This document shows positions 662 through 26,500 of a DNA stretch of 64,000 bases, one piece after another. The translations under genes were made by a program, and so were the position numbers. Under the pieces are notes generated by a model, which was not told the DNA's origin, searched no databases, and was given only the letters and a program-made list of their open reading frames with translations. The stretch comes from a plasmid. How positions within the stretch are numbered: the stretch's first letter is position 1; each line of letters starts with the position of its first letter. The stretch lies in sequence record CP080654.1. One strand, written 5' to 3'.

Positions 662-1013
662 ACGGCTAATACCTGAGATGAATAAGTCAACAACCAACGG
701 ATATCCGTCAACGAGATCAGTTTAACCAATTTATTGAACACTCATAACCCAAATAATCATGCGACTGCGCGCTGCCACGGAAACGCGTAAAAATCAGAAC
801 TGAAAGAGGGAAGACGGATGACGGACCAGAAACACAATGATGCCTATTCGCGCTGGTTAATTGAATAGGCAGACAGAGAAGAAAAGGAAGAATTCTCGCG
901 TTCGTTCAGCAGACTGAAATGCATCCTGTTAAATATCGTGGTGTTCGGTATCATTTCACTGGGCGTTTGCCTGGCTGTTCAGCAGGTGACGCATTGACAT
1001 CCACCCCGGCACA

Positions 1014-1208
1014 CAGGGCGAGAGCATGAGTTGATTTTTTGTTGTTTTTCATGATGAGATAGGTGGCTCGGCCAATGCTGAACAAATTTGAGATCGCATT
1101 TTCAGCACACCCCTGTACAAAATACGAGCAGAAAATGCAATTGCACCTTGGGATGACAGTGGTTAAATTTTTTTGGTTAACATGTCAGTAACTCATGCTC
1201 TCGCCCTG
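1014..1208. mobile_element. 195-bp MITE-like element with perfect 19-bp terminal inverted repeats (cagggcgagagcatgagtt ... aactcatgctctcgccctg). The repeats match the terminal repeat of the downstream ISAs1-family IS
   Basis: Perfect TIRs read directly at 1014-1032 and 1190-1208; no coding capacity; TIR core gggcgagagc(a/g)tga shared with the IS end at 13233-13253. Confidence 0.6.
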
Positions 1209-1317
1209 AGTTCGCACCTTCCGCTACTTCGACAGTTGTGTAAAAAACCGTGCTCGTTGATAACCAGAAGGTGCGGTACTGAAAAACTATTGCTTGCAAC
1301 AATTTGCTCAAACGTCA

Positions 1318-1677
1318 CTATGGCTTTTCATGGTTTTTAACCCATTTTTGCATCTGGTCGATTTCTGGTTGCTGGGCTTTGATAATATCTTCTGCCAGCT
1401 TTCGCATTTCAGGATCCTTACCAAATTTAAGCTGCGTTTCAGACATTTGAATGGCACCTTGATGGTGGGCAATCATCCCTTTTGCAAAGGCAACATCTGG
1501 ATCAGAGGACATCACTCCTGCCATCATGTCGTTATGCATACTTTTCATACCAGACATCAACTCTTGAGAAGCTGGAGACATGGAATGGTGATCGCCCATC
1601 GGCATGGTTTTGTCAACCGCAAAAACAGCAACAGGAGACATTAATAGGGCGGTCAGTATCAATATTTTTTTGTTCAT
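1318..1677 (-). CDS. DUF305-family periplasmic protein (119 aa) with N-terminal signal peptide
   Basis: MNKKILILTALLMSPVAVFA signal peptide; conserved MIAHHQGAIQM motif typical of DUF305. Confidence 0.65.
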   Translation of the reverse strand: MNKKILILTALLMSPVAVFAVDKTMPMGDHHSMSPASQELMSGMKSMHNDMMAGVMSSDPDVAFAKGMIAHHQGAIQMSETQLKFGKDPEMRKLAEDIIKAQQPEIDQMQKWVKNHEKP

Positions 1678-1848
1678 TTTACTACCTCTTAAAGAAAACT
1701 CGTTCGCTGAGAAGTATTTACTTATCTCACTTCAAGTTACCTGACTATTGGACTTTGGCCTACAAGAAACTCGAATTATTCAGAGTGTAGATGGCGTTGT
1801 TTCCCAAATCAACCATCAAGCCACGACTGCCCCAGCCCCAAGTGACCG

Positions 1849-2094
1849 TTACACTCGGCGCTTTCTGACAGGCAGACCAAGGGGGTTCAGTTTGTTGATT
1901 GCACCAACATACGCCATCACTTCCCCTACCTGACCGTTGTATGTTCGCAGACTGATTTTGCCCGTCATCAACTGCTTGAACCGATACATCGCCGTCTCTG
2001 CCTGCGAGCGACGGTGATATCCCGATATCTTCTTCCAGTGCACCAGCCCTTCCTTGCGCATCACCAGCACCGCCTCATTTACGCCCCAGGGCAA
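1849..2094 (-). pseudogene. 3' fragment of an IS5-family (IS903-group) transposase gene, truncated by insertion of the ISAs1-family IS
   Basis: ..YHRRSQAETAMYRFKQLMTGKISLRTYNGQVGEVMAYVGAINKLN.. matches the conserved C-terminus of IS903-type transposases; only about 80 codons remain. Confidence 0.55.
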
Positions 2095-2180
2095 GATCGC
2101 GAACGTTTTTTGACCAAGAAAAACAGGTTTGACCCTGCGATCCAGCTGTGATCTTATGCTCCTTTTTCAGGAGTGCCTTC

Positions 2181-3287
2181 ATGTCTATTGATGCTGTTTT
2201 TGCTCAGTTTTTCGATGATATTCCCGACCCTCGCCAGCATGCCAAGATTTATTATCCTTTCTACGATGTCCTGTTTCTCACCGTCTGCGCAGTGATAGGT
2301 GGCGCAGACGGGTGGGAAGATATTGAAGATTTCGGTGAGGTTCATCTTCCTTGGTTTCAATCCAAGGGGCTGTTTAAAAATGGTATTCCTGTCCATGACA
2401 CCATCGCCAGGATCATCTCCGGTATCAAACCAGAGCCGTTTCAGGCCGCGTTCGTACGTTGGACTCAAGCCATCAACCAGCACACCGAAGGCGCCTTGGT
2501 CGCTATCGATGGCAAAACCCTGCGCAGTTCCTATAACCGTGAAGATCGAACGTCGACCATTCACATGGTAAGCGCCTATGCCGCCGCTAATAAACTGGTG
2601 CTCGGACAGATAAAAACCGACGCCAAGTCCAATGAAATCACCGCCATTCCCGACTTGTTGGCGTTGCTCGACATCAAAGGCTGCCTGGTATCCATCGATG
2701 CGATGGGGTGCCAAACCGAGATCGCCGAGACCATCCTCCAGCAAAGTGGCGATTACTTGTTAGCCGTCAAAGGCAACCAGCCCAAGTTGTTCGAGGCGGT
2801 CCGGCAAGCCCTGGCCCCGCTGGCGGCTACCCCATTATGCGCAGCAACGATGACTCTTGATAAGGCTCATGGGCGCATCGATGGTCGTGAGTACCATATC
2901 ATGGCGGCGGGTGAGTTAGCCGCCCAGTTTCCTCATTGGGAACAGTTGCGCAGTATTGGCGTGGCCATCTCTTATCGCATTGAAAAAAGGGAAAAAATCA
3001 CTATTGAACAGCGTTATTACATCAGTTCCAAAGCACTGACGCGGGATGAGTTTGCACGATCGGTGCGTGGGCACTGGGCCATCGAAAATAGCCTGCACTG
3101 GGTGCTGGACGTCACGATGGGCGAGGACGATTGCCCAATTTATCGCGGTGATGCCGCAGAGATCCTTGCGTGCATCCGGCACATGGGGCTGAACATGCTC
3201 AGGGCTGAAACTTCACGCAAAGCGAGCATCAGACGGAAGCAAAAGATTGCAGGAATGAGCAGTGAATACCTGGAAAAGGTACTCAAT
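2181..3287 (+). pseudogene. tnpA: ISAs1-family (H-repeat-associated) transposase, interrupted 17 codons before its stop by Tn4401. The listed ORF 2148..3365 reads through into the Tn4401 IR
   Basis: Strong family resemblance (MSIDAVFAQFFDDIPDPRQ.. start; ..RGHWAIENSLHWVLDVTMGEDD.. DDE region); reading frame resumes at 13200. Confidence 0.75.
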
Positions 3288-3326
3288 GGGGGGGTAAGCG
3301 GGAACCCCAGAAAATTCCGCCATTCC
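3288..3326. repeat. Tn4401 right terminal inverted repeat (IRR)
   Basis: Tn3-family-like 39-bp IR starting with a G run; mirrored at 13156-13194. Confidence 0.8.
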
Positions 3327-3579
3327 GCATTGTGGAATTTTTTGGGGGGGTGGTCCGCGGCATGACGACCCGCCAAAGGCTACCGCATCTATCTGAGGCG
3401 CTGTGGCGCGACGCTGAAACCCCGGGGAATTCCGCTACTCCAGTTCCAGGTCCGCAATAGTTCGTCCAGGTCGGGTGGCGTACGCCGGAAACGCCGATTT
3501 TTCCGCAACCGTTTCTGCGTTGTCGGCAAGGTGGTCTCAGAGAGCGCTCAAGAAGCGGTTTTTCTCGTATGTTTAGCTA

Positions 3580-5136
3580 CGGTGGCCTAGGAGCCTGCGC
3601 GGCAGAAGCCAAATCGGCGGAAGATCGAGGACGATACGGGGATGGCTGCCAGTTACCTTCCTTACCGACCCGACCAATCCTATCTGCTGCCCCCTTCTCT
3701 GGGAGAGTGGCTACCTGAAGGGCATCTTGCCTACTTCATCAGCGAGACTGTCGATACGCTGGACTTGAGCGCATTCCACGCCCGGTATGCCGGCGGTGGT
3801 CCGGGCAATCAGCCGTTTCATCCGGCGATGATGGTCAAAGTGCTGATCTATGGTTACGCGAGCGGCGTCTTCTCTTCGCGCAAACTAGCCAGGAAGCTGT
3901 ACGAGGATGTCGCGTTGCGTGTGCTGGCCGCTGGAAACTTCCCGGCCCACCGCACGCTGAGTGACTTCCGTGCCCTACACCTGACCGAGCTTGAGAATTT
4001 GTTCGTTCAGGTGGTGCAACTGGCGCGCGAATGTGGGCTGGTGAAGCTTGGCACGATCGCGGTCGACGGCACCAAGGTAAAAGCCAACGCCAGCCGCCAC
4101 AAGGCGATGAGCTATAAGCGCATGAAGCCGGCCGAGGACGAATTGCATTGCGAGATCAAGGCGCTGCTTGATCGCGCCAAGGCTACCGACGACCAGGAGC
4201 GTAACGAGCCGGAGCTGGACATTCCTGCCGAGATTTCTCGCCGCGAGAAGCGCCTGGAGGCGATCCAGGCGGCAAAGGCGCGCCTGGAAGCGCGCCAGCG
4301 TGAAGCGGACCAGGCCCGGGGGCGCAGCGAAGACGATGGCCGCCGGCCTCGCCATCCGGATGGCTCGGACAAGGGCGGTGGCTCGTACAAACGCGAGTTT
4401 GGTGTGCCGGATGACCGTGATCAGGAAAGCTTCACCGATCCGGACAGCCGGATCATGAAACACGCCGGTGGTGGCTCCGAGCAGAGCTACAACGGGTACA
4501 CAGCGGTCGATGCCGAGCACCAGATCATCGTGGCGGCGGAGTTGACCAACTGCGCCGCGGACAGTCAGGCGCTGCTGGGCATGCTGGCAGCAGTTCAGGC
4601 CAACACCGGAGAAATGCCGGCCCAGACGCTGGCGGATGCGGGATTCCGTAGTGAGGCTGTTCTGGCAAAGGTCGCCGATCACCACGGCGATGTCATCGTT
4701 GCCCTCGGCCGCGAGGGACGTGAAGATGCCAAGGTCAATGCCAAGACCCATCCGCATACGGCGGCGATTGCGGCGAAATTGAAAACGGAGCAAGGCGATG
4801 CAGCTTACCGCCGGCGCAAGTCGATCGTGGAGGCTCCGAATGGTTGGATCAAGGCGGTGATGGGATTGCGTCAGTTCAGCATGAGGGGCCTGGACAAGGT
4901 GCAAGCCGAGTGGAAGCTCGTCTGCATGGCGCTAAATCTGAGGCGAATGGCGTATCTGTGAGGGCGAAGGTTAAATGGGGCGGCTCAAATGCACCCCAGT
5001 CGTCATAACACGCCGCGCGCCGCAAGATTGGTATCCTTGGCGCCGACGCCTTGCCAATTGCAGAGAGCGCCGCCGCCATCGTCAGTGCTCTACAGAAAAC
5101 CGGTCACACGGCTCTGCCGCGCAGACTCCTAGCCTA
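3580..5136 (+). mobile_element. IS1182-family insertion sequence (ISKpn6-like) within Tn4401
   Basis: Imperfect terminal IRs ggcctaggagcctgcgcggcagaagcc (3584-3610) and the reverse complement of ggctctgccgcgcagactcctagcc (5110-5134); encloses a 439-aa transposase gene. Confidence 0.55.
3642..4961 (+). CDS. tnpA: IS1182-family DDE transposase (439 aa)
   Basis: Family-typical N-terminus (..FHPAMMVKVLIYGYASGVFSSRKLA..) and DDE region. Confidence 0.8.
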   Translation: MAASYLPYRPDQSYLLPPSLGEWLPEGHLAYFISETVDTLDLSAFHARYAGGGPGNQPFHPAMMVKVLIYGYASGVFSSRKLARKLYEDVALRVLAAGNFPAHRTLSDFRALHLTELENLFVQVVQLARECGLVKLGTIAVDGTKVKANASRHKAMSYKRMKPAEDELHCEIKALLDRAKATDDQERNEPELDIPAEISRREKRLEAIQAAKARLEARQREADQARGRSEDDGRRPRHPDGSDKGGGSYKREFGVPDDRDQESFTDPDSRIMKHAGGGSEQSYNGYTAVDAEHQIIVAAELTNCAADSQALLGMLAAVQANTGEMPAQTLADAGFRSEAVLAKVADHHGDVIVALGREGREDAKVNAKTHPHTAAIAAKLKTEQGDAAYRRRKSIVEAPNGWIKAVMGLRQFSMRGLDKVQAEWKLVCMALNLRRMAYL

Positions 5137-5210
5137 AATGTGACAGTGGTTGGTAATCCATGCCGCCCGCAAGGGCGGCGGTGGTGGGCCAATAGATGAT
5201 TTTCAGAGCC

Positions 5211-6092
5211 TTACTGCCCGTTGACGCCCAATCCCTCGAGCGCGAGTCTAGCCGCAGCGGCGATGACGGCCTCGCTGTGCTTGTCATCCTTGTTAGGCGC
5301 CCGGGTGTAGACGGCCAACACAATAGGTGCGCGCCCAGTGGGCCAGACGACGGCATAGTCATTTGCCGTGCCATACACTCCGCAGGTTCCGGTTTTGTCT
5401 CCGACTGCCCAGTCTGCCGGCACCGCCGCGCGGATGCGGTGGTTGCCGGTCGTGTTTCCCTTTAGCCAATCAACAAACTGCTGCCGCTGCGGCGCAGCCA
5501 GTGCAGAGCCCAGTGTCAGTTTTTGTAAGCTTTCCGTCACGGCGCGCGGCGATGAGGTATCGCGCGCATCGCCTGGGATGGCGGAGTTCAGCTCCAGCTC
5601 CCAGCGGTCCAGACGGAACGTGGTATCGCCGATAGAGCGCATGAAGGCCGTCAGCCCGGCCGGGCCGCCCAACTCCTTCAGCAACAAATTGGCGGCGGCG
5701 TTATCACTGTATTGCACGGCGGCCGCGGACAGCTCCGCCACCGTCATGCCTGTTGTCAGATATTTTTCCGAGATGGGTGACCACGGAACCAGCGCATTTT
5801 TGCCGTAACGGATGGGTGTGTCCAGCAAGCCGGCCTGCTGCTGGCTGCGAGCCAGCACAGCGGCAGCAAGAAAGCCCTTGAATGAGCTGCACAGTGGGAA
5901 GCGCTCCTCAGCGCGGTAACTTACAGTTGCGCCTGAGCCGGTATCCATCGCGTACACACCGATGGAGCCGCCAAAGTCCTGTTCGAGTTTAGCGAATGGT
6001 TCCGCGACGAGGTTGGTCAGCGCGGTGGCAGAAAAGCCAGCCAGCGGCCATGAGAGACAAGACAGCAGAACTAGACGGCGATACAGTGACAT
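5211..6092 (-). CDS. blaKPC: Class A carbapenemase KPC (293 aa). Diagnostic position 272 is His, as in KPC-2 rather than KPC-3
   Basis: Near-identity to KPC over the full length ([50 protein letters not shown]...SxxK, SDN, KTG motifs). The listed ORF starts one Met earlier (MMSLY). Confidence 0.95.
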
Positions 6093-6379
6093 CAACGATA
6101 TTCCTTGTTTGAAGGTGGAGCTAGGTGTAGCGGCCGGATGTAATCAGGCCGCTACAGCTGGGATTATCACCGAGCTTGAAAAACGAATCAGGTCGGCGTT
6201 CATGGGTCGGCCACCTCGCCTGACCTCGGCATCCACGTTACGGACGGCCTCAGGAAGTCCTGGCCAAGCCCCGACTATTGGGGCGCGAAGATAGCACCGA
6301 GGGTACGCCGGTGTCAACACCAACTGAAAACTGACCCACTTTACCCCTGAATCACCAAAGTAATACTGACCCACCTGGA

Positions 6380-8205
<1,826 letters not shown>

Positions 8206-8287
8206 ACTAGCCCAGGTGGATCAGTTTTACTTCGCTGGGGTGGGTCAGTTTTACACTGCTGCTAACACGGAACCGCTGAAAATTCCG

Positions 8288-11200
8288 TCACTCCAGTTCC
8301 AGGCCTGCGACGATCGCATCGAGATCGATCGTCTTGCCGCTGCTTTGAAAGGTGTAGTGCCCGTTGAGCAGGATGTGCCGCCATGCCGCAGGCGAAATTT
8401 TTGTGATGAGTGCCAGCGCCTTGCTGTTGCCGGCCGCCTCGTACTTGGTCACCAGCCGCGACAAGATTGCCGAGTTGTAGAAAATGATCGTGTTGGCGAT
8501 CAGCCGTGCGCACTGGTTGCTGATCTCGATTTCAATGTCGGTGCGACCGGTCAGTTCCTTCTTACCGCCGACCTGGGCAATGGCCGAGCGTAGCTGATGG
8601 TAGGACTCGAGGCGATTTTGCGAGCGGTGCACGTTGCGTTCCAGTTGCGGATCGCGCAGGTAGCGAAGCGTGTAGATGCTGCGGATGAGCTTGTCGAACT
8701 CGAAGATCGCGCGCCGCGTCGGGTTCGTCGTGGTGTAGGTGCACAGCTTGCGGATCAGCGTGCCCTGCGTCATTTCCTTCAGCCCGAGTGTGGCGACGAT
8801 CCGGTCGATGTTCGGCTTCTCGCGATGGATGAGATCGCAGTCGATTTTCCCGACTGGCCGAATCAGGCACGCCTGATACTGTGCTGGATCGTCAGCGCAG
8901 TAGAGTTCTTTCAATTGCGCGTTGAGGTCGGTGAAGCGCGGCTCGAACCGCCGGCCAAACCAATGCAGGATGGCGAAGTTGGCCTTGTTGACGCTGTGCA
9001 TGTCGCCGGTGATCGCGGTCGGCATGATGTCCGACGTGTTGCGATACCAGATGTCGAACACGTGGTGGGCCTCGTAGTCGTGCGCGCCGATCAGGTAGCC
9101 GTTGAGCGGGATGTGGTTGCACAGCAGCGTGTAGGCGACCACGCCCTTGCCGCGCCCGAAGTACTTGCGCGAATAGCGCGCCTTCACGGTCGGCCGTTCG
9201 ACGCTGAATTTCTGCCCGTCGACGGCACCGTACAGCGTTTCGAGGTCGAACGAGTAGTATGGGAAGATCGGTAGCGTGGCGATGGCGTTGCTGATGCAGT
9301 CGTTGGCCGCGTGCAGCGTTGCCTGGCGCAGGTACTGCTGGTAGCCGCTATCCAGCACGTGGTACGGGATGTCGCTGGTGCGCGCCATGACGTGGTTGCC
9401 GTGGTTCATCGCTTGCGCGATGATGACCGCCATCAGGCTGTCAGCGTCGGCGACCTTCTTCGCGTAGCGCGGCTGCATGGGCGTGAACGCCGACAGAAAC
9501 TTGCACTCGTCGTTGACGAAGCGAAACACGTCGGCCACGTCGCAGAACGGAAGCTTCTCGTAGAATGCCTTTTCGCGCGCTTTCTCATTCTCGCTCTTGG
9601 GCTTGCGCCAGGTCAGTTTCTGCGTGTCCTTGTTGTATTCGAGGTGCGTCAGCTTGCCCTGTTTCAGCTCGCGGTTGAACGCCAGCCACTGCGTGCGCAG
9701 TTCGGCAGTCAGCGCATCGAGTTGGGCATGGACGGGTTGCTGCAGGAAGGGGATCTCCATTTTTGCGAGCACATCGATCTTCCTGTCCATCTCAACCAGT
9801 TCATCTGAGAAGTGCCGGTGTTGCAGGCTGTCGTCGAGGTAGAGTTCACCCGATTGGAGACGCTTCCTGATCTGGCGGTACAGCCAGAACTCGTAGCGGT
9901 CAGCGTGCAGGCCGGTTGGTTTACCGTCGGCGTCGAAGGTCAGCAGGTACGGCCGCAAGCGTTTCGGAAGTGTCGCCGCGGGCCACTCGTCGAGTGGCCG
10001 TTGCGACAGCCGCTGCTGCTTGGCAAAAACACCTTTGGCCCAGGCCAGCGCGGCAAGCCATGGACTGTCTGGATTGGAGCCGGAGAGGTCGAGCGCAACG
10101 TACAGTGGACGAAGATGGCGGCGCATGCGGTCGGCCAGCCCGTCCACCGCCTGCCACTGCAAGGCCAGCTTGCTCGCCGGCTTCACGCTCATACGCTGCG
10201 CCGTGGTTTGCAGCGTATCGCGAGGCATGATCTTGTAGGCGCGCTGCCGCACCTCGCCGAAGGGCGTGGGATCGGCCACGCTATCATCAACGTAGAGTGA
10301 CAGCAGGCGGCCTACCCGCGGCGTTTCCTGCTGACGGCGCACCTGCTCGTCGGCAAAGGATTGTTTGGCACCAGCGCTGCTTTCGTCCTCCAACTGCTTC
10401 ATGTGGTACGCCATCGCATCGACCAGGTTGTCGGAGAGCTGCCGGTAGCGTACCCAGGCATAGCACAGCAGGTAGAGTTGGGTCTGATCGGCCTTCAGAT
10501 TGCGCAGGTCGTGGACGGTGTAGAAGTTTGCCAGGCTCGCGTAGTACAGCAGGTTCTGCTGCGAGACGTCGAGTTTAGGCAGCAGTGTCTTGGCGATTGC
10601 GTGCAGCGGCTCCAGCGTGGCGCGCTTTTCGCGCTCGCGGACCATCTGGCGCCAGCCGAAATTCTTGGCGTCCTGCTTGAGCGCCGCCAGTTGCGACAGG
10701 GTGTCATCACGGACCAGAAGCTGGCTCAGCGCGGCCTTGGCAGATTCGTCCAACGCTTGCTCCAGCAGATTGCCCAGGCGCCGGCGCTCGGCGGATAGCG
10801 TTTCGCTGACCAACTCTTGCAAGGTCGTATAGCCGGGCCGGATAATCTTGTGCTCATTGAGCCAGACGATCAGCTCGGCGGCGACGAACCCCGGCGTTAC
10901 GTCACGCCGCACGGTCCGTGCGGCCTGCTGCTCGAGCTGCGGCAGGAAGGCGGCCGACCACGGCCAGTAGCCGAATAGTTTGGCGATCTGCTCGCGCTGG
11001 GTGTAGCGTTCATGCTTGGTGATCGCCTTGGGTTCGAACACCTCGCCGTGGAAATAGCGGCTCAGCACGAAAGCGCAATCGTCCTCGACTTCGTCCCAGT
11101 CGAAACTGAAGAAGGCATGCTTGGCCTTGAAGTAGCCGATCTGCAAGAGGCAATAGACCTTGGCATGAAGACTGGGCCGGCTGTTGGCAAGCGCCAACTC

Positions 11201-11317
11201 GGTTTCTGTCACAGCCAGATATTCCAGCTGCTGCGCATCATCGAACTCCGGCAGGCCATACAAGGCCTCCTGTTCGGCGTCGGATAGGACGCTGAGTAGC
11301 TTGTTCTTCTTGCTCAT
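8288..11317 (-). CDS. tnpA: Tn3-family transposase TnpA of Tn4401 (1009 aa)
   Basis: Length and conserved Tn3-family DDE transposase features; the C-terminus overlaps an IR-like sequence (..AGLELE*). Confidence 0.9.
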   Translation of the reverse strand: MSKKNKLLSVLSDAEQEALYGLPEFDDAQQLEYLAVTETELALANSRPSLHAKVYCLLQIGYFKAKHAFFSFDWDEVEDDCAFVLSRYFHGEVFEPKAITKHERYTQREQIAKLFGYWPWSAAFLPQLEQQAARTVRRDVTPGFVAAELIVWLNEHKIIRPGYTTLQELVSETLSAERRRLGNLLEQALDESAKAALSQLLVRDDTLSQLAALKQDAKNFGWRQMVREREKRATLEPLHAIAKTLLPKLDVSQQNLLYYASLANFYTVHDLRNLKADQTQLYLLCYAWVRYRQLSDNLVDAMAYHMKQLEDESSAGAKQSFADEQVRRQQETPRVGRLLSLYVDDSVADPTPFGEVRQRAYKIMPRDTLQTTAQRMSVKPASKLALQWQAVDGLADRMRRHLRPLYVALDLSGSNPDSPWLAALAWAKGVFAKQQRLSQRPLDEWPAATLPKRLRPYLLTFDADGKPTGLHADRYEFWLYRQIRKRLQSGELYLDDSLQHRHFSDELVEMDRKIDVLAKMEIPFLQQPVHAQLDALTAELRTQWLAFNRELKQGKLTHLEYNKDTQKLTWRKPKSENEKAREKAFYEKLPFCDVADVFRFVNDECKFLSAFTPMQPRYAKKVADADSLMAVIIAQAMNHGNHVMARTSDIPYHVLDSGYQQYLRQATLHAANDCISNAIATLPIFPYYSFDLETLYGAVDGQKFSVERPTVKARYSRKYFGRGKGVVAYTLLCNHIPLNGYLIGAHDYEAHHVFDIWYRNTSDIMPTAITGDMHSVNKANFAILHWFGRRFEPRFTDLNAQLKELYCADDPAQYQACLIRPVGKIDCDLIHREKPNIDRIVATLGLKEMTQGTLIRKLCTYTTTNPTRRAIFEFDKLIRSIYTLRYLRDPQLERNVHRSQNRLESYHQLRSAIAQVGGKKELTGRTDIEIEISNQCARLIANTIIFYNSAILSRLVTKYEAAGNSKALALITKISPAAWRHILLNGHYTFQSSGKTIDLDAIVAGLELE

Positions 11318-11426
11318 GGCCCGTTCTTGCTATCTTGAGGTTTCGTAGAAACATGGGGCATTTTCGATTCTACTGAAATAATCGTTATTATCGCGTTACT
11401 CGCTTTTCGAATCGCAACCTGTCCAT
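11318..11426. promoter_or_regulatory. Divergent tnpA / recombinase intergenic region; candidate resolution (res) site and promoters
   Basis: Imperfect inverted repeats (ttttcgattctac ... cgcttttcgaatcgcaa) in a 109-bp AT-richer gap between divergent genes. Confidence 0.35.
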
Positions 11427-13142
11427 ATGAAAACGGGCCAGACTACGGCTTCGAGTTCTACCCCAGTCGGCTTTCCCGATGCGGATTCGCTGGCTGCCTT
11501 GCGCGGCTGGTACGCGGGACTCAGCTCTCGCGCGGCCGTTGAACACTACCTGGCGGCACGCAAGGCCGCCGGTCAATCAGCGCGAGGGATGCTGGGGCAT
11601 ATCCGCCGCCAGCTCATCGTTTTCGCCAACAGCCGCCACCGGCCGGATCTGGCCGACGTGTTCCAGCACGCCCCCGAAGAGCGACAGGGGCGCGCGGGTG
11701 CCGTCGAACGCGCGATCCGGCTCTTGCCCACGCTGCCGGCGCCGAAGCCCCAGATCAGCGACAGCATCGACCAGTGGCTGTCTCCGAGGACCGTCAGGGC
11801 ACTGCAGGCGTACGGTATCCACACCCTCTCGGCGCTGACCGTGCGCATTCCCCGCCGGCGTGGCTGGTGGAAAGCCATCGAGGGACTCGGCATGACAGGC
11901 GCCCGGCAGGTCGAGGCTTTCTTTGCCGCACATCCGCAGCTCACCGAGCGCGCCCGGGCCCTGATCCCGATTATTCAGCCCAGCGGCATCGTGCCGTGGG
12001 AGCAGTTGCGTCTGCCGAACGAAGTCGACGGCTCGCAGGGCAATTTCCGGGCCCCGCGCAACGCTTGCACGCTGAATGCGACCAACGACTACGAGGCCGT
12101 GCAGGCCTGGCTGGCGCTGCACGAGACTGTCGCCACACAGCGCGCCTATCGCAAGGAGGCTGCGCGGCTAATCCTGTGGGCCATCGTCGAACGCGGACGG
12201 GCGCTATCATCCCTGACCACGGACGATGCAATCGCGTACCGGGCCTTTGTCCGGCACCCGACCCCGCGCGAGCGTTGGGTGGGGCCACCTCGACCACGCG
12301 ATTCGGTGGAATGGCGCCCCTTCTCGGGCGGCTTGTCCGCACGCTCGGCAGCGTATGCGCTGACGGTGCTCTCGGCGCTGTTCCGGTGGCTCATCGAGCA
12401 GCGCTATGTGCTGGCCAACCCTTTCGCCGGCGTCAAGGTACGCGGTCACGCCTTGCGGCCCGCACTGGATACGGCGCGAGGCTTTACCGAGGGAGAATGG
12501 CTACTGCTGCGCGCCATTGCAGACGGCCTGGAATGGTCCTACGGCTGGTCCGAGCCGGCAGCACAACGCCTGCGCTTCATGCTCGACTTCGGCTATGCCA
12601 CGGGCCTGCGCGCTAGCGAACTGGTCGGCGCCGTCCTGGGTAATGTCCGCCTCGACGAGCACGGTGACCACTGGCTGCATTTGGTTGGCAAAGGTGGCAA
12701 ACCAGGTAAGGTGGCCTTGCCGCCGCTCGCGTATACGGCGCTGGACCAATACTTGGCACAGCGTCAACTGCCAGTCAGCCGGGAACGGTGGAATCCGAAA
12801 ACGCCCCTGGTGGGCAGTCTTGGGGAAGACGGTAATGCCGGCATCACCGGCCCTCACCTTTGGTGCGTGTTGCGAAGATTCTTTACGCAAGCCGCTGAGG
12901 CCATTGAGGCCGATCATCCGGTCGCCGCCGAAAAGCTGCGCCGTGCCACGCCTCATTGGATGCGTCACAGTCATGCCAGCCATGCGTTGGCCCGGGGAGC
13001 TCAGCTCACCGCGGTGCGCGACAACCTACGCCATGCGTCGATCGCCACGACGTCGATGTATTTGCATGGCGATGAGCTCGAGCGCGCCAGGCAGATGCGG
13101 CAGGCTTTTGGCGCTCGTCACGTCAAGCGAGGAGTCGACTGA
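11427..13142 (+). CDS. tnpR: Site-specific recombinase of Tn4401 (571 aa), annotated as tnpR/resolvase in this transposon but tyrosine-recombinase family by sequence
   Basis: C-terminal catalytic signature ..TPHWMRHSHASHALARG...TTSMYLHGD (R-H-x-x-R-H...Y); lies immediately inside IRL and divergent from tnpA. Confidence 0.75.
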   Translation: MKTGQTTASSSTPVGFPDADSLAALRGWYAGLSSRAAVEHYLAARKAAGQSARGMLGHIRRQLIVFANSRHRPDLADVFQHAPEERQGRAGAVERAIRLLPTLPAPKPQISDSIDQWLSPRTVRALQAYGIHTLSALTVRIPRRRGWWKAIEGLGMTGARQVEAFFAAHPQLTERARALIPIIQPSGIVPWEQLRLPNEVDGSQGNFRAPRNACTLNATNDYEAVQAWLALHETVATQRAYRKEAARLILWAIVERGRALSSLTTDDAIAYRAFVRHPTPRERWVGPPRPRDSVEWRPFSGGLSARSAAYALTVLSALFRWLIEQRYVLANPFAGVKVRGHALRPALDTARGFTEGEWLLLRAIADGLEWSYGWSEPAAQRLRFMLDFGYATGLRASELVGAVLGNVRLDEHGDHWLHLVGKGGKPGKVALPPLAYTALDQYLAQRQLPVSRERWNPKTPLVGSLGEDGNAGITGPHLWCVLRRFFTQAAEAIEADHPVAAEKLRRATPHWMRHSHASHALARGAQLTAVRDNLRHASIATTSMYLHGDELERARQMRQAFGARHVKRGVD

Positions 13143-13155
13143 ATTTTCATCATAC

Positions 13156-13194
13156 GGAATGACGGAATTTTCTGGGATTCCCGCTTAGAACCCC
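13156..13194. repeat. Tn4401 left terminal inverted repeat (IRL)
   Basis: Reverse complement ggggttctaagcgggaatcccagaaaattccgtcattccg matches IRR. Confidence 0.8.
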
Positions 13195-13436
13195 TCAATG
13201 CTGGCCTCAACAAATTGGGTGAATTTTAACAATATGTTCACGCTCTCGCCCTGCCCCGGCACAGTCCGCTGAAGGAATGGCAGTTCCGTTCACCACATTT
13301 GCTAAGACATCAGGACTTACTTTGTAATCTGGAAGTACATCGAAGTTGCAACAATAGTACTCTATTGCGTGACGTAGATTCGTGACGTATAGTTACTGCA
13401 ACTTTTTTGTTTATAACTACCGTCAGGTACAAAATT

Positions 13437-13592: not shown

Positions 13593-13613
13593 TCCTGGAC
13601 TTTGAGGCACAAT

Positions 13614-13640
13614 AAACCATCATTCGCTGATGGTTTTTTT
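13614..13640 (+). terminator. Rho-independent terminator (ccatca-ttcgc-tgatgg plus T7) immediately followed by the next start codon
   Basis: Stem-loop plus T-run read directly; ATG of the downstream CDS at 13641. Confidence 0.55.
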
Positions 13641-14633
13641 ATGCCTGTTCAAGACGTTATTCCCCCCTATGAGCAGATGTACCTGCTAAATCAGCAGCTG
13701 ATCTGCAACGCTGACCAGTTCAAACATGCCGTTATCACAGTTGGCGGTCAGGCTGTGCAATACTGGATATCCTATTATCATGCACAATACGGCGACAGAT
13801 TGCCTGATGAGCGCCTCACCACATCTGTTGACTGCGACTACAGCGCCCGGAAAGATGATATTGCGGCTATAGCAAAAACGCTCAACGTTAAGACGTGGGA
13901 GAACAAAGACGGTCAGCCCCCATCCCTTGCGCAGTTTATGCTTATCGATCAGGATACACACGATATCAAACGGGATGATGGACGCTTATTTGCCGTACCG
14001 GATGCGCCTGACGAGCCAAATGTGGTGGATATTATCGACCGCCCCGGAGGCTTTGACCGTTCTGATTTTCAGGGGAAAAAGCTTTACCTGTATACCGCCC
14101 CGTTTTATGTAGAAGCAACCGGCCCCGGCATGCCTGAAATGAATGAAAAGGTAAGGGTATTGAACCCTGTTGCCTGTATGCGCTCGCGCTTTAGCAATCT
14201 GATTGCCTTGCGCCGTGATGCTGAAATTGAAATTGCGCGTATTAACGCGCTCAAGATCCCGTGTTATTTCTTTCTCATCGAACAGTTTGATGAACAGCCG
14301 TTCAAAGTTGCACGAGGAATCTTTATGGATTTATGGAGGCTCGCGAATGACGAAAGCTGTCTGCGCCATCAGGCCTTCTGGCATAGCTGGCAGGGGCCGC
14401 TTCTTGAAGGGCAACAAAGTAACAACATCACTCTGATTGATGTGTTGGAAGGCGTACATGTATACCTGGAAGGGCATCTTGATGACTTTGAAATACCGGA
14501 AGCCTTTGTCACCAAAGAAGTACCGCTAAAGCTCGCACAGCTGCGTGAACGCTGGGAGCGTTACGTGGTACTCAATGCTGAATGGGCAGCAAGAGGGCGC
14601 AGGGGATTTGAACGTAATCCCCGTGATGATTAG
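13641..14633 (+). CDS. Hypothetical 330-aa protein of unknown function (listed ORF 13602.. includes 13 non-coding codons spanning the terminator)
   Basis: Long ORF with backbone-like GC; no confidently recognisable motif. Confidence 0.5.
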   Translation: MPVQDVIPPYEQMYLLNQQLICNADQFKHAVITVGGQAVQYWISYYHAQYGDRLPDERLTTSVDCDYSARKDDIAAIAKTLNVKTWENKDGQPPSLAQFMLIDQDTHDIKRDDGRLFAVPDAPDEPNVVDIIDRPGGFDRSDFQGKKLYLYTAPFYVEATGPGMPEMNEKVRVLNPVACMRSRFSNLIALRRDAEIEIARINALKIPCYFFLIEQFDEQPFKVARGIFMDLWRLANDESCLRHQAFWHSWQGPLLEGQQSNNITLIDVLEGVHVYLEGHLDDFEIPEAFVTKEVPLKLAQLRERWERYVVLNAEWAARGRRGFERNPRDD

Positions 14634-17406: not shown

Positions 17407-18264
17407 TTATAGGGGGGCAGTGGCCAGCCGCGTGTAGTTGTTTCCGCGCGACAGCAGCATGCGCTCCTGCACACGGCGCTCAACCTCACGCTTCAGCGCT
17501 TCTTTATCGCCCCTGAAGCGGCCGGTGGCGTATTCGCGGGTCAGTTGCTGACGCACGCGCGTCTCGATGTCATGACGCTGCCGTGATGCATCCCGCCGTG
17601 CAGTATCCCGCTTCCGGCCGTGAGATTTACGCTCAGCCTGATAGCTGCGAAAACGCTCACGCACGAACCGCCACGCTTTTGCGATCAGCTCGTCCATCTC
17701 CAGCGGTTTCAGTTTCTGCTTTTTGCGCTGCAGGTTTTCCCACTCCACACGGCTGCGGCGCGCGGCCACCACAGCCACCTCAGAAACGTCAAGCGCGGAA
17801 AACAGAGCCGGGGTGAAGGTGATATCGGTCGGGATGTTACAGCCGATCTGCGGGTCATATTCCGTCTGATAGGTGATGAGCCCCAGCTCCGCCAAAAACT
17901 TCAGCGCCCGCGTGGCACGGCTGACTGACAGGTTGCCGCTCCTTGACTCGGTGGCCAGTCCACACTCGATGGCCATATTGGTAATCGAGCGCTGCACGCG
18001 ATTGGCCAGCGGATCATAGTGAAAACACATTGCCTGCAGTAGCGCGTCAATTGCACGCCGGCGCAACAGTGGTGGCATCCTGTGCCGCTTACCCAGCGAA
18101 CGCAAAAACGCCACATGAATGGAAAAATCAAAACGGGACGTGAAGCCTTCGGCTTTCGCCATCAGCTTACGGCAGAACGGCAGGGTCTTTTTCCCTTCTC
18201 GCGGCGTGAAAACCGGGTTCGGGTTTTTAACCTGTGAATAGTGGTTTTGAAGGATATCAGTCAC
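17407..18264 (-). CDS. repA: IncFII replication initiator RepA1 (285 aa)
   Basis: High similarity along the full length to R100/R1 RepA1 ([32 protein letters not shown]..). Confidence 0.92.
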
Positions 18265-23546: not shown

Positions 23547-26500
23547 TCAGTCGCCCCCGAGGGTTTTCTCGCGGTTCAGGTCGCGCACCATGTCCCGCTC
23601 CACAGCCTGCAGACGTTCACGCTGCAGACTTTCTGAGGCCACCTGCTGAATCGCCGCCTCCTGGCGCCGGAACTGAGGATCATCCGGTAGCGTCGTTTTC
23701 TCCGTACCCGGCCGGTCACGCTCCAGTCCGCGAATGACGTCCCCGATAACCTCTTTCACCCGGTCCGCCGGCTCGCCGGCTTTACGCGCCTCCCCGGCCA
23801 CTTCCCGGGCAGTCTGTTCCGCCTGTTTTTCCATTTCCCGGCGCTGCTGTTCTTCTGCCGCCCGCTGCGCCAGAACCTCTGGCGGGAGGATAATGTCAGC
23901 CCCGGCCTGCGGTACCGGAGCCACCGGCGCCGGTTCAGCCCATACCCGCCCGCCGGTCATGGCCCCGGGGTTCCAGGGGCGGTCATCACCGGCCAGACGC
24001 ACCACCACCCCGGTATCGGGATTGTCGCGGGCCATTCTGACGCCCTCCCCCATATTCCCGGCCAGCAGGCTTTCACCGTTGCGGCTGTTCTGCAGCGCCA
24101 CGAACCGGGCGTCTTCATTGCCCATAATTCGTCCCTCCCCGCCGATAGCCTCAAGCCGTCCGTCCCGATCGGTCAGTGGGCTGAGCCAGATACCGGCGGC
24201 TTTCCCGTTTTTATCAAATGCCGGCAGCGCCACATGCGGCTGAGGGTACTTTTTCCCCGGAGAAATGAATTTTCCTGGTGAACTTCCCTGTGCCAGACCG
24301 GACTGCTGCAGGGCTGCCCGGCCCGCGGCGGTTTCATCCAGTGGCCTTGCCCGACCGAACAGCAGATCTGCGCTTTTCACCGCCCGGTCGTTACGGGGTT
24401 CCAGAATATCGTGCGCCGTCGCTTTCTCAGGTGAATGCTGGATGGCCTTTATCCAGCCCTCACGGCTGTCGGTGTAGACCTGAACATGCTGTTTCATGCG
24501 AGATAAAGCCACATAGGCAGACTCAAAGCTGGCCATCTGTTCCCGACCACCGGCCACCCCTTCCAGCGCGATGGCATACGGTTCGCTGGCCCCCTGGGCG
24601 CCGTGGGCGGTGATGGCGTAGGCGAGGTCGATATGCTGCTGCGCCTGATCCGCCTTCGGGGTCAGCGTGCGGGTTAGTTTGCCATCAGACAGCGTGACAC
24701 TGTCACCCGAAACAGACTGCACCTCCCAGATACTGTTGGCCACATAGCCGCGCTCCGGGTCACTTTTGCTGAAACGCATTCGGTCCCCCTGAGACACGGT
24801 GATCTTTTCCTGACGATAGAGCGTGACGCCTTCTGCCGATGCCTCCCGGGGTGAGATAAATCGCTCCTTTCCTTCACTGTCAGTCAGAGTGATCAACTGA
24901 TTATCCTTATCCACTTTGCTGATACGGTGGTATACGTTATCAACCAGCGCCACCGCCTCCTTGTGAGCCGTCCAGGTCGACAATTTGCGCAGTTCACCGT
25001 CACGGATGTTACTCGTGACCAGCACCGGCAGGGTGATTTCCTCTTTGCCGGTTTCCCCGTTCTCCCGCCGTGCGTCATGGATCAGACTGTTCAGCGCCCG
25101 CCGGTCCTTATTCAGATGGGTGATCACCAGCGTCTGCGACTGTGCCTCCGGGGTCCGTCCGGTATAGTCCTTCACCAGCGCCTCGTAGAGCGACGCGGGC
25201 TGACCTGCCGGCAGGGTTTCCCCCTCGCTCAGTGCCTTTTGTATCGCCTTTTCCTGTGCCTGCGTGAATTCCACCACAGAACTGCCCGGCGCCCAGACGC
25301 CTTCTTTTCTCGGCACCTGTTCCGGCGTGACCTGCTCAATGGTGGTCAGGGCGCGGTGCACATCCCGCTCAATCAGGCTGTAGACCGCCGGTCGCAGCTC
25401 AGGCACCTGGCGCACAATCTCTTTCATGATGGCAACGTCGGCGGCGCTGCGCTGCTGCATCAGCCTGAACGGCTGGCCCGGCGCGATGGGCTGCAGCTGG
25501 TCGTTATCCCCACTGGACACCGCCCGTCCACCGCCGGCGACGATGAGGGAGTGGGCTTTTGCCATATCGGCCAGCCCCACCATCGAGCTCTCGTCGAGCA
25601 GAAACAGGGTGTTGCTGAAATCGGGTGTCTGGCCATTGCGCTGCAGCAGCTGCGTGTCGTGGAGGAACGACGCCGTCGTGCGCGCCTCCACGCCGGCACT
25701 CTGCATTTCCCCGACCGCGCGATGCGTCGGCGCCAGACCGATGACGCGCGGACGGGTCTCTTCCGGCAGCAGACTGATGGCACTCATGACTGCCCGGAAC
25801 TGGGTGGTTTTCCCCACCCCGGCATACCCCTGAACCACCGTGAACCGATCCGTGCTTTCCAGAATCATCCGGGTCGCCGCCCGCTGTCCGGCGGTCAGGT
25901 CCGTCATCAGACTGGCCGGCACGCGGTCCATCAGGGGGGCCACCGCGCCTTTACCTTCCAGCACGTGGGTCAGGATGCTTTTTTCGGCGTCCCAGGTCTG
26001 ACGGGAAATCAGCAGGTCATTGCCGTAGCCGTGCGCCACCGGTGCATTCAGCAACTGCCCCGACCTGATTTGTGTCTGAATGGTCGTGTCGATGTCCGCC
26101 ATCGGAACCTTCCCGCCCCCGGTTTCCAGCGCCGTCGCCAGCAGCTGGGGCCGGGAGAAGGTCAGTTTCTCACTTTCAAGCAGCGGGATGGCCAGGTGAA
26201 TGGCCTGTTCTGCCGGGGTACGCAGTCCGGCCTTCTGCTGCGCAATGGCCGCATCCAGGTCCGTCTCGCCGGATCGGGTCTTCAGCTGCTCTGAGACCAC
26301 GCTGAAGGAGGTATGCCGCGACAGCTTCTCCGTCGTGCGCGCCGCATCCTGCGCCGAGTACAGCCGGAGATGACTTCCGCTCTGCGCCAGCTGGTTGAGG
26401 GTGGCGTTATCCAGCTCACGCTGCGTCACCGACGCAAAGACCGTTGCCGTCTCGCTAACCGACCTGCCGGGACTTTCCACCCAGCCGTGGCCGATTTTAA

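What the first reader, a model, noticed from the sequence alone, without database searches (positions are those of the whole stretch)
3288..13194. Complete Tn4401 (length consistent with isoform a) carrying blaKPC, nested inside an ISAs1-family IS
The transposon is bounded by 39-bp IRs and an intact 5-bp TCAAT duplication, so it arrived by genuine transposition into the 3' end of an ISAs1-family transposase gene (frame ..KVLN|TCAAT-dup|AGLNKLGEF*). Its 9,907-bp length equals Tn4401b (10,006 bp) minus the 99-bp deletion upstream of blaKPC that defines Tn4401a, the high-expression isoform. blaKPC encodes His272 (KPC-2-type residue). This is a clinically important structure sitting 4-10 kb from the RepFII replicon.
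Basis: partly seen in the sequence, partly recalled or inferred. Interest (0 to 1): 0.7.

Follow-up and report, generated by a model that had tools for sequence, protein, structure and literature searches.

The report
Tn4401a with blaKPC-2 inside ISKpn31
This is the well-known 9.9-kb carbapenem-resistance transposon Tn4401a carrying blaKPC-2, at its classic insertion site inside the insertion sequence ISKpn31 on a pKpQIL-type plasmid; it matters clinically but is already fully described.

Summary
Window 3288-13194 (9,907 bp) is a complete Tn4401. Its 39-bp terminal inverted repeats match at 34 of 39 positions, and a 5-bp TCAAT duplication flanks it (3283-3287 and 13195-13199). TCAAT reads ATTGA on the other strand, which is the signature duplication of pKpQIL.

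The element is base-for-base identical to a Tn4401b reference except for one 99-bp deletion at Tn4401b coordinates 7020-7118. That is the coordinate pair TETyper uses for Tn4401a. The deletion junction lies at window 6175|6176, 83 nt upstream of the blaKPC start codon. The blaKPC gene is nucleotide-identical to blaKPC-2 and encodes His272.

The host element is ISKpn31 (ISAs1 family). An Aeromonas popoffii contig carries the same IS core uninterrupted, with a single TCAAT, so the insertion was a real transposition. ISKpn31 is itself a 2,328-bp insertion (1014-13253 minus Tn4401). It carries the p019 gene, has 10-bp direct repeats (CCCCGGCACA), and three IncFII plasmids hold its exact empty site.

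Window 1-25000 is 100% identical to at least seven sequenced plasmids, and the same junctions occur in more than 150 records. Interest is low.

The parts
1004..1013 (.). Left copy of the 10-bp direct repeat (CCCCGGCACA) made when ISKpn31 inserted
   Evidence: It is identical to 13254-13263. Three IncFII plasmids hold the reconstructed empty site, with one repeat copy, at 416/416 identity.
1014..3287 (+). ISKpn31, left part, from its outer left inverted repeat (CAGGGCGAGAGCATGAG...) to the Tn4401 insertion point
   Evidence: The outer IR at 1014 matches the right IR at 13253 at 15 of the first 16 positions. RefSeq names the gene 'ISAs1-like element ISKpn31 family transposase'. The literature calls p019 the passenger gene of ISKpn31.
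1014..1208 (.). 195-bp mini-element bounded by 19-bp perfect inverted repeats of the ISAs1-type end; it forms the outer left end of ISKpn31
   Evidence: Read from the sequence and the IR comparison. In PLSDB it occurs only in this context, in 213 records.
1318..1677 (-). p019, the passenger gene of ISKpn31 (119 aa, DUF305 / CopM-family metallochaperone domain). Its product gives the 11,109-Da MALDI-TOF marker peak
   Evidence: Pfam DUF305 at 3.2e-20. NCBIfam CopM NF049983 at 123 bits against a cutoff of 90. Literature on p019 and ISKpn31.
1849..2086 (-). Remnant of the C-terminal end of an IS5-family transposase gene, cut off by the ISAs1 core
   Evidence: NCBIfam NF033579 matches profile positions 225-288 of 289 at E 6e-17, below the cutoff as expected for a fragment.
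2087..2112 (+). Inner left inverted repeat of the 1,255-bp ISAs1-type core (CAGGGCAAGATCGCGAACGTTTTTTG)
   Evidence: Pattern search and comparison with the right IR. The Aeromonas popoffii contig L005 begins exactly at this position.
2181..3365 (+). ISKpn31 transposase ORF as it now stands: 394 aa, with the last 25 aa encoded by the Tn4401 end. The intact protein is 378 aa
   Evidence: NCBIfam ISAs1 transposase NF033564 at 416 bits against a cutoff of 70. Pfam DDE_Tnp_1_assoc plus DDE_Tnp_1. Translations of the fused and restored forms.
3283..3287 (.). Left copy of the Tn4401 5-bp target-site duplication, TCAAT (ATTGA on the other strand)
   Evidence: The uninterrupted homologue has a single copy.
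3288..13194 (-). Tn4401a, 9,907 bp, lying inverted relative to the conventional tnpR-first orientation
   Evidence: Identical to Tn4401b apart from the 99-bp deletion.
3288..3326 (+). 39-bp terminal inverted repeat at the ISKpn6 side
   Evidence: 34 of 39 positions match the other end.
3587..5132 (+). ISKpn6 (IS1182 family); transposase gene at 3642-4961
   Evidence: 20-nt inverted repeats at 3587-3606 and 5113-5132. Annotation. Pfam.
5211..6092 (-). blaKPC-2 (293 aa, His272)
   Evidence: Nucleotide-identical to the annotated blaKPC-2 of L002. It differs from the KPC-3 of pKpQIL-IT only at H272Y. NCBIfam blaKPC at 684.8 bits against a cutoff of 625.
6138..6166 (-). Promoter P1: TAATCC, 17 nt, TTACAT
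   Evidence: The sequence was read directly. Calling it P1 rests on my recollection of Naas et al. 2012, which could not be read.
6175..6176 (.). Junction of the 99-bp deletion that defines isoform a (Tn4401b positions 7020-7118 are missing). It lies 83 nt upstream of the blaKPC ATG and 9 nt upstream of the P1 -35 hexamer
   Evidence: TETyper labels the 7020-7118 deletion Tn4401a.
6288..6317 (-). Outward-facing sigma-70-like promoter in the ISKpn7 end (TTGACA, 18 nt, TG-TATCTT), taken to be P2
   Evidence: The promoter scan scores it 10 of 12, with the shuffled expectation at 0.5 sites. It lies inside the ISKpn7 inverted repeat.
6311..8268 (-). ISKpn7 (IS21 family); istB at 6380-7159 and istA at 7156-8181
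   Evidence: 29-nt inverted repeats at 6311-6339 and 8240-8268. Annotation. Pfam IstB_IS21 and rve.
8288..11317 (-). Tn4401 tnpA, a Tn3-family DDE transposase of 1,009 aa
   Evidence: NCBIfam transpos_Tn3 at 855.8 bits against a cutoff of 500. Pfam DDE_Tnp_Tn3.
11427..13142 (+). Tn4401 'tnpR', the cointegrate-resolution recombinase of 571 aa
   Evidence: Annotated 'Tn4401 family resolvase TnpR'. Pfam finds DUF3701 plus a Phage_integrase (tyrosine recombinase) domain.
13156..13194 (-). 39-bp terminal inverted repeat at the tnpR side
13195..13199 (.). Right copy of the Tn4401 target-site duplication, TCAAT
13200..13253 (+). ISKpn31, right part: the last 9 codons of the transposase gene, the stop codon and the right inverted repeat (...AACAATATGTTCACGCTCTCGCCCTG)
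13254..13263 (.). Right copy of the 10-bp direct repeat of ISKpn31 (CCCCGGCACA)

Best explanation
Window 3288-13194 is a complete, apparently functional copy of the Tn3-family transposon Tn4401, isoform a, carrying blaKPC-2. In TETyper terms it is Tn4401a-1 with ATTGA/ATTGA flanks.

**History (inferred from the anatomy and from empty sites).**
1. A 2,328-bp ISKpn31 inserted into an IncFII(K) backbone between the recombinase/hypothetical gene pair and the repA-proximal genes, making a 10-bp duplication. This ISKpn31 is an ISAs1-family core of Aeromonas type plus the passenger gene p019.
2. Tn4401a then inserted by replicative transposition 9 codons before the end of the ISKpn31 transposase gene, making the 5-bp TCAAT duplication. 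Tn3-family transposition uses the TnpA DDE transposase, forms a cointegrate, and is resolved by the element's own recombinase.
3. That single ancestral event defines the pKpQIL lineage. This window inherited it through plasmid descent, transfer or recombination.

**Function.** blaKPC-2 is transcribed on the minus strand from P1 (6166-6138) and from an outward-facing promoter in the ISKpn7 end (6317-6288). The 99-bp deletion removes the spacer between the two promoters. Published work associates this isoform with higher KPC expression and higher carbapenem MICs than Tn4401b.

**What is shown and what is inferred.** The sequence identities, boundaries, duplications, empty sites and allele are shown here. 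The transposition mechanism, the promoter activity and the expression effect come from established knowledge and the literature and were not tested.
For: **The element itself**
- The inverted repeats, the duplication and the length are confirmed.
- It is identical to Tn4401b except for one 99-bp gap at 7020-7118.
- TETyper's table labels the 7020-7118 deletion Tn4401a and lists Tn4401a-1 with ATTGA/ATTGA flanks. [quoted passage not shown]
- blaKPC equals blaKPC-2, and the NCBIfam blaKPC model scores above its cutoff.
- The gene content (Tn3 TnpA, recombinase, IS21 istAB, IS1182 transposase) is confirmed by Pfam and NCBIfam and by RefSeq annotation of identical DNA.

**The nested insertions**
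- The ISKpn31 core occurs uninterrupted, with a single TCAAT, in Aeromonas popoffii at 1222/1223 identity. ISAs12 homologues also span the insertion site.
- The ISKpn31 direct repeats are identical, and the exact empty site is present in three plasmids.

**The lineage**
- Window 1-25000 is 100% identical to at least 7 plasmids.
- 207 records hold the left junction region and 161 hold the right junction region.
- The window is collinear with pKpQIL-IT, with 7 SNPs in 26.5 kb.

**Literature**
- On the expression and MIC effect of isoform a.
- On the ISKpn31-Tn4401 association, citing Partridge 2014.
Against: Nothing in the sequence contradicts this reading. Five limits apply.
- Promoter use and expression level were not measured.
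- The P1 and P2 names rest on my recollection of Naas et al. 2012, which could not be read.
- The official ISfinder boundaries of ISKpn31 and Partridge 2014 could not be consulted. The 2,328-bp extent is therefore my own reconstruction.
- Transposition competence is inferred only from identity to reference copies.
- Base-by-base comparison with pKpQIL-IT covers only window 1-26537.
Confidence: 0.97

Rival explanations
1. It is a different Tn4401 isoform (b, c, d, e or h) or a new deletion variant whose length only happens to equal 9,907 bp.
For: Length alone cannot separate a 99-bp deletion at one place from the same size of deletion elsewhere. Several isoforms differ only in the istB-blaKPC spacer.
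Against: The only difference from Tn4401b is one gap at exactly 7020-7118, with no mismatches and no ambiguity in where the gap falls. TETyper assigns that deletion to Tn4401a.
Confidence: 0.01
2. The blaKPC region is a non-Tn4401 element or a truncated, immobile Tn4401 remnant that arrived here by recombination (for example IS26-mediated) rather than by transposition.
For: Such structures are common around blaKPC, including truncated variants in TETyper and NTE-KPC elements.
Against: Both 39-bp ends are present and tnpA and tnpR are intact. A perfect 5-bp duplication flanks the element, and the target is contiguous in an uninterrupted homologue.
Confidence: 0.01
3. The nesting is an assembly or chimera artefact of this window and not a real molecule.
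For: Repeated mobile elements often cause misassemblies.
Against: The first 25 kb, including both junctions, is 100% identical in a single aligned piece to at least 7 independently sequenced complete plasmids. The junctions recur in more than 150 records.
Confidence: 0.01
4. The whole 12.2-kb ISKpn31::Tn4401a unit (1014-13253), and not Tn4401 alone, is the entity that moves between replicons, using the ISKpn31 outer ends.
For: The unit has intact outer inverted repeats and 10-bp direct repeats. The transposase keeps its whole ISAs1 profile match. The ISKpn31-Tn4401a block occurs on plasmids of several replicon types, including ColE1 (pSLMT) and IncFIB/IncHI1B.
Against: - The records examined individually also carry the same backbone flanks, namely the recombinase, the hypothetical gene or the Tn5403 part. 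That points to recombination or co-transfer of a larger segment. The flanks of the 213 records that hold the outer end were not inspected.
- No second insertion site with different direct repeats was seen in the searches run, but they were not designed to test for one.
- The transposase C-terminus is altered, and its gene is almost untranscribed in pBIC1a.
Confidence: 0.03

Closest known systems
Tn4401a of pKpQIL and pKpQIL-like IncFII(K) plasmids (e.g. pKpQIL-IT, NC_019155.1)
   Same: The transposon length, the 99-bp deletion, the ATTGA/TCAAT duplication, the insertion point in ISKpn31 and the flanking backbone are all the same. The window is collinear with pKpQIL-IT over 26.5 kb with 7 SNPs.
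   Different: pKpQIL-IT carries blaKPC-3 (Tyr272) and this window carries blaKPC-2 (His272), through one SNP at window 5279. KPC-2 versions of the same structure are themselves known. At least 7 plasmids are 100% identical over window 1-25000, and blaKPC-2-Tn4401a-ATTGA dominated a UK outbreak.
Tn4401b (e.g. pKPC_UVA01 CP017937; pKPC-b21f NZ_CP026123.1)
   Same: Every base outside the deletion is the same, including blaKPC-2, ISKpn6, ISKpn7, tnpA, tnpR and the inverted repeats.
   Different: Tn4401b keeps the 99 bp (7020-7118) between the ISKpn7-end promoter and P1. It sits in other targets and is reported to give lower carbapenem MICs.
ISAs12 and the ISKpn31-type core in Aeromonas (ISAs1 family)
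   Same: The transposase is of the same family (NF033564). The terminal repeats are of the CAGGG(C/T)GAGA.CGTGAAC type. The A. popoffii contig is 99.9% identical to the Tn4401-free core. ISAs12 is about 90% identical across the insertion site.
   Different: The plasmid copy carries Tn4401 in its 3' end. It also extends leftwards to a second, outer inverted repeat, enclosing p019 and an IS5 remnant.

Membership tests
Tn4401 (Tn3-family transposon) | 39-bp imperfect terminal inverted repeats | tested here: met
   34 of 39 positions match at the exact ends, 3288-3326 and 13156-13194. The feature is described.
Tn4401 (Tn3-family transposon) | 5-bp target-site duplication | tested here: met
   TCAAT is present on both sides. 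The uninterrupted homologue has one copy.
Tn4401 (Tn3-family transposon) | Tn3-family tnpA and the element's tnpR, with blaKPC between ISKpn7 (upstream) and ISKpn6 (downstream) | tested here: met
   NCBIfam and Pfam matches. The gene order is the same as in annotated references.
Tn4401 (Tn3-family transposon) | Ability to transpose (a functional element) | not testable with these tools
   All genes and both ends are identical to reference copies. Activity itself needs a mating-out assay.
Tn4401 isoform a | 99-bp deletion between istB and blaKPC at Tn4401b positions 7020-7118, and no other structural change | tested here: met
   The 2,888-bp prefix plus the 7,019-bp suffix add up to the full 9,907 bp, and the deleted block is 7020-7118. 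TETyper labels that deletion Tn4401a.
Tn4401 isoform a | Higher blaKPC expression than isoform b | not testable with these tools
   Literature statements only. The promoter motifs are present.
KPC-2 allele | A 293-aa sequence identical to KPC-2, with His at residue 272 where KPC-3 has Tyr | tested here: met
   Nucleotide-identical to the gene that AMRFinderPlus calls blaKPC-2 at 100% in L002. The only difference from the KPC-3 of pKpQIL-IT is H272Y.
ISAs1 family / ISKpn31 | ISAs1-type DDE transposase | tested here: met
   NF033564 at 416 bits against a cutoff of 70. PF13808 plus PF01609. RefSeq name 'ISAs1-like element ISKpn31 family transposase'.
ISAs1 family / ISKpn31 | Terminal inverted repeats and direct repeats of the target | tested here: met
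   Inverted repeats at 1014 and 13253. The 10-bp direct repeats CCCCGGCACA are identical. The empty site is found at 416/416 in three plasmids.
ISAs1 family / ISKpn31 | Boundaries that agree with the ISfinder entry for ISKpn31 | not testable with these tools
The literature does call p019 the passenger gene of ISKpn31, which fits the 2,328-bp extent.
pKpQIL-like plasmid | Tn4401a with ATTGA/ATTGA flanks in ISKpn31 on an IncFII(K) conjugative backbone | tested here: met
   Collinear with pKpQIL-IT, 7 SNPs in 26.5 kb. ATTGA/ATTGA corresponds to pKpQIL. The tra region is 99.9% identical to pKpQIL-like plasmids.
pKpQIL-like plasmid | IncFII(K2) repA allele and an IncFIB(pQil) second replicon | not tested
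   Only the MOB-suite typing of the reference record was seen. The window does not cover the whole plasmid.

The most novel reading that the evidence does not exclude
The element called ISKpn31 may not be a simple IS. It may be a compound built around a 1,255-bp Aeromonas ISAs1-family IS. That core is 99.9% identical, and uninterrupted, in Aeromonas popoffii, where the contig starts exactly at the inner inverted repeat at window 2087. In this reading the core once transposed using a more distant left end supplied by a 195-bp mini-element bounded by inverted repeats. That event would have carried the CopM-like gene p019 and an IS5 remnant into the IncFII(K) backbone. The MALDI-TOF 'KPC marker' protein would then be a copper-metallochaperone-type passenger of Aeromonas-mobilome origin. 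The probability below is for this reading being correct and also not already spelled out in Partridge 2014 or ISfinder.
Probability: 0.3. Interest if true: 0.2.

Novelty: already known. Interest (0 to 1): 0.08.

Why it matters
blaKPC on Tn4401a in pKpQIL-type plasmids is one of the main vehicles of carbapenem resistance in Klebsiella pneumoniae CG258 worldwide, so recognising it matters for surveillance and infection control. For discovery it adds nothing. The transposon, its isoform, its insertion site, its duplication and its host IS are all published, and identical sequences are in public databases. The practical yield here is a verified, base-accurate annotation of the nested structure (backbone, then ISKpn31 with p019, then Tn4401a) and the typing result: Tn4401a-1, KPC-2, ATTGA/ATTGA.

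Tried and rejected
- **Uninterrupted ISKpn31 in plasmids.** A junction-spanning query found no PLSDB record crossing the Tn4401 site at more than about 90% identity. Only ISAs12 relatives crossed it. An exact 46-nt scan of genome contigs then found one uninterrupted copy, in Aeromonas popoffii.
- **Independent copies of the 195-bp mini-element (1014-1208).** No sign of one: 211 of the 213 records match at 99% identity or more and 210 cover at least 80% of the element, though their flanks were not inspected.
- **Another source of p019.** Outside the roughly 220 near-identical records, the sampled weaker matches are only about 72-74% identical DUF305 genes.
- **Key papers.** Partridge 2014 (PMC4313344), Gato 2021 (PMC8373255) and Naas 2012 (PMC3421896) are not held. 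Their content is cited only second-hand or from memory.
- **Full-window comparison with pKpQIL-IT.** Loci L003 and L004 never appeared in the Python sandbox. Base-by-base comparison therefore stops at window 26537, and the rest rests on BLAST summaries.
- **Rejected readings.** Another isoform, a truncated or non-Tn4401 element, and an assembly artefact were all considered and rejected (see the rival explanations).

Full report
**1. The observation**

Reading the two ends shows that the element starts at 3288 with GGGGGGGTAAGCGGGAACCCCAGAAAATTCCGCCATTCCG. It ends at 13194 with the imperfect reverse complement of that sequence. The inverted-repeat search returns this pair as its top hit. A direct comparison gives 34 matches in the 39-bp repeat.

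TCAAT lies immediately outside both ends, at 3283-3287 and 13195-13199, and the element is 9,907 bp long.

**2. What the element is**

A megablast of 3288-13194 against 72,556 plasmids finds 2,278 records. Twenty-six of the 30 listed top matches are 100.0% identical in two pieces that span exactly 10,006 bp of the record. Those are Tn4401b copies that differ from the window by one gap.

I compared the window base by base with the Tn4401b of pKPC-b21f (L002 301-10306).
- The common prefix is 2,888 bp and the common suffix is 7,019 bp. Together they make up the full 9,907 bp.
- There are therefore no substitutions and there is a single 99-bp deletion, with no junction microhomology.
- The junction lies between window 6175 and 6176, 83 nt upstream of the blaKPC ATG at 6092 on the minus strand.
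- In the conventional tnpR-first numbering, the missing block is 7020-7118.

The supplementary table of the TETyper paper labels exactly '7020-7118' as Tn4401a. It lists 'Tn4401a-1 ATTGA ATTGA' as a recurrent type. [quoted passage not shown] ATTGA is the reverse complement of TCAAT, because the transposon lies inverted in this window.

The gene content was confirmed independently by Pfam and NCBIfam and by RefSeq annotation of identical DNA.

| Gene | Window coordinates | Evidence |
|---|---|---|
| ISKpn6 transposase (IS1182 type) | 3642-4961 (+) | Pfam; annotation |
| blaKPC | 5211-6092 (-) | NCBIfam blaKPC, 684.8 bits (cutoff 625) |
| ISKpn7 istB / istA | 6380-7159 / 7156-8181 (-) | Pfam IstB_IS21 and rve |
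| tnpA | 8288-11317 (-) | NCBIfam transpos_Tn3, 855.8 bits (cutoff 500) |
| 'tnpR' | 11427-13142 (+) | Annotated Tn4401 family resolvase; Pfam DUF3701 plus Phage_integrase |

**3. The allele**

The blaKPC coding sequence is nucleotide-identical to the gene that AMRFinderPlus calls blaKPC-2 at 100% in L002. Its product differs from the KPC-3 of pKpQIL-IT only at residue 272, His against Tyr.

**4. The promoter region**

On the minus strand, TAATCC, 17 nt, TTACAT lies at 6166-6138. The deletion junction is 9 nt upstream of that -35 hexamer.

A strong sigma-70-like site, TTGACA, 18 nt, TG-TATCTT, scores 10 of 12 and lies at 6317-6288. That places it inside the terminal repeat of ISKpn7. From memory of Naas et al. 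2012, these are promoters P1 and P2. That paper could not be read, so the names are a recollection.

The deletion removes the spacer between the two promoters and brings the ISKpn7-end promoter 99 bp closer to blaKPC. Papers that could be read state that Tn4401a is associated with high blaKPC expression. They also report that plasmids carrying Tn4401a gave higher carbapenem MICs than those carrying Tn4401b.

**5. The host element**

The ORF that runs into the left end of Tn4401 (2181-3365) is annotated in identical DNA as 'ISAs1-like element ISKpn31 family transposase'. It scores 416 bits on NCBIfam's ISAs1 transposase model, against a cutoff of 70.

Removing Tn4401 and one TCAAT restores a 378-aa protein ending ...EKVLNAGLNKLGEF*. 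The interrupted gene encodes 394 aa, with a 25-aa tail read from the Tn4401 end. The ISAs1 profile match (residues 30-340 of the protein) lies entirely before the insertion point.

Two lines of evidence show that this is a true insertion into a previously continuous gene.
- ISAs12 copies in Aeromonas and enterobacterial plasmids align at about 90% identity straight across the insertion point.
- An exact 46-nt probe spanning the restored junction hits a 1,223-bp contig of Aeromonas popoffii CIP 105493. That contig is 1222/1223 identical to the Tn4401-free core and contains a single TCAAT.

**6. ISKpn31 is itself an insertion**

The right end of the IS is ...AACAATATGTTCACGCTCTCGCCCTG, ending at 13253. 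Two left-end candidates exist.
- **Inner repeat at 2087** (CAGGGCAAGATCGCGAAC). This is exactly where the A. popoffii contig begins.
- **Outer repeat at 1014** (CAGGGCGAGAGCATGAG).

The outer boundary is the one flanked by a perfect 10-bp direct repeat, CCCCGGCACA, at 1004-1013 and 13254-13263. Joining the flanks with one repeat copy gives a 416-nt sequence. That sequence is found at 100% identity, in one piece, in three IncFII plasmids of K. quasipneumoniae, K. grimontii and K. oxytoca. In the K. grimontii plasmid the recombinase and hypothetical gene pair run straight on into the repA-proximal genes, with no ISKpn31. In the K. oxytoca plasmid the repA-proximal side is the same but different IS elements lie upstream.

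So the unit that inserted was 2,328 bp (1014-3287 plus 13200-13253). It is made up of:
- a 195-bp mini-element with 19-bp perfect terminal repeats (1014-1208);
- p019 (1318-1677, minus strand);
- an IS5-transposase remnant (1849-2086, minus strand);
- the 1,255-bp ISAs1 core.

This fits the published description of p019 as the 'passenger gene' of ISKpn31. [quoted passage not shown]

**7. The context**

The window is collinear with pKpQIL-IT (NC_019155.1) at offset 3463. There are 7 SNPs in 26,537 bp, and one of them is the KPC-2/KPC-3 difference. By that offset the IncFII repA lies at about window 17407-18264, 4.2 kb from the transposon. The F-type tra region follows.

Window 1-25000 is 100% identical in a single piece to at least seven complete plasmids. 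The left junction region occurs in 207 records and the right junction region in 161. The insertion is therefore one ancestral event that has spread with the pKpQIL lineage. It is not a new event in this plasmid.

**8. Mechanism**

Tn3-family elements move by replicative transposition, and the 5-bp duplication is the footprint of that process. The TnpA DDE transposase acts on the 39-bp ends and forms a cointegrate. The element's own recombinase then resolves the cointegrate. This is established knowledge for the family and for Tn4401; from memory, the functional study is Cuzon et al. 2011.

The structural prerequisites are shown here: intact ends, intact genes, the duplication and an empty-site homologue. 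The activity itself is inferred.

**9. Comparison with what is known, and verdict**

Every defining feature of Tn4401, of isoform a, of KPC-2, of an ISAs1-family IS and of the pKpQIL context that could be tested was met (see the membership table). The rival readings were examined and rejected, or, for compound mobility, left at very low probability. They were another isoform, a truncated or non-Tn4401 element, an assembly artefact, and mobility of the whole compound.

The only modestly new details are the compound architecture of ISKpn31, its near-identical uninterrupted core in Aeromonas popoffii, and the CopM-family hit for p019. These may already be covered in the sources I could not read.

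Novelty: already known. Interest: about 0.08.

Noticed in passing
window 1014-2112: The left part of ISKpn31 carries three copies of the ISAs1-type end. An inverted pair at 1014 and 1208 bounds a 195-bp mini-element, and an inner copy lies at 2087. The Aeromonas popoffii contig L005 starts exactly at 2087. This suggests the 2,328-bp 'IS' is a compound that was mobilised from an alternative outer end.
   Followed up: partly
window 1318-1677 (-): p019 gives the 11,109-Da MALDI-TOF peak used as a KPC marker, and a 2018 paper describes it as having no homologue of known function. It now scores above the curated cutoff on NCBIfam's CopM-family metallochaperone model (123 bits against 90) and on Pfam DUF305. 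Near-identical copies occur in about 220 plasmid records; among the sampled weaker matches are DUF305 genes about 72-74% identical.
   Followed up: partly
window 1849-2086 (-): A C-terminal remnant of an IS5-family transposase gene (profile positions 225-288 of 289) abuts the inner ISAs1 repeat. pBIC1a annotates a 'Transposase' gene between p019 and the ISKpn31 transposase, which is probably this remnant.
   Followed up: partly
window 2181-3365 (+): The RefSeq protein named ISKpn31 family transposase (WP_004152398.1, 394 aa) is a fusion. Its last 25 residues are translated from the Tn4401 terminal repeat region. The uninterrupted protein is 378 aa.
   Followed up: yes
window 11427-13142 (+): The Tn4401 protein annotated 'resolvase TnpR' (571 aa) carries a tyrosine-recombinase catalytic domain (Pfam Phage_integrase, PF00589) plus DUF3701. 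It weakly matches XerC/XerD models. It is not a classical serine resolvase.
   Followed up: no
L006 (NZ_CP087582.1, K. quasipneumoniae from a white-tailed deer), position 3138; equivalent to window 13872: This pKpQIL-like backbone has the exact ISKpn31-free empty site. It nevertheless carries a Tn4401 inserted about 600 bp further right, in the opposite orientation, inside the hypothetical gene that corresponds to window 13602-14633. That is an independent Tn4401 insertion into the same backbone region.
   Followed up: partly
window 6144-6383 (-): pKpQIL-IT annotates a 240-nt 'hypothetical protein' CDS that lies over the blaKPC promoter region and the end of ISKpn7. It is probably a spurious gene call.
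   Followed up: no
window 16886, 16889, 24501, 26307, 26309, 26337: These are the six SNPs against pKpQIL-IT other than the KPC-2/KPC-3 site. Two small clusters, at 16886/16889 and at 26307-26337, may reflect recombination patches or sequencing differences in the older reference.
   Followed up: no
window 39001-64000: The tra and leading region is 99.9% identical to many pKpQIL-like plasmids, not 100%, and differs in length by 1 bp. The differences were not located.
   Followed up: no
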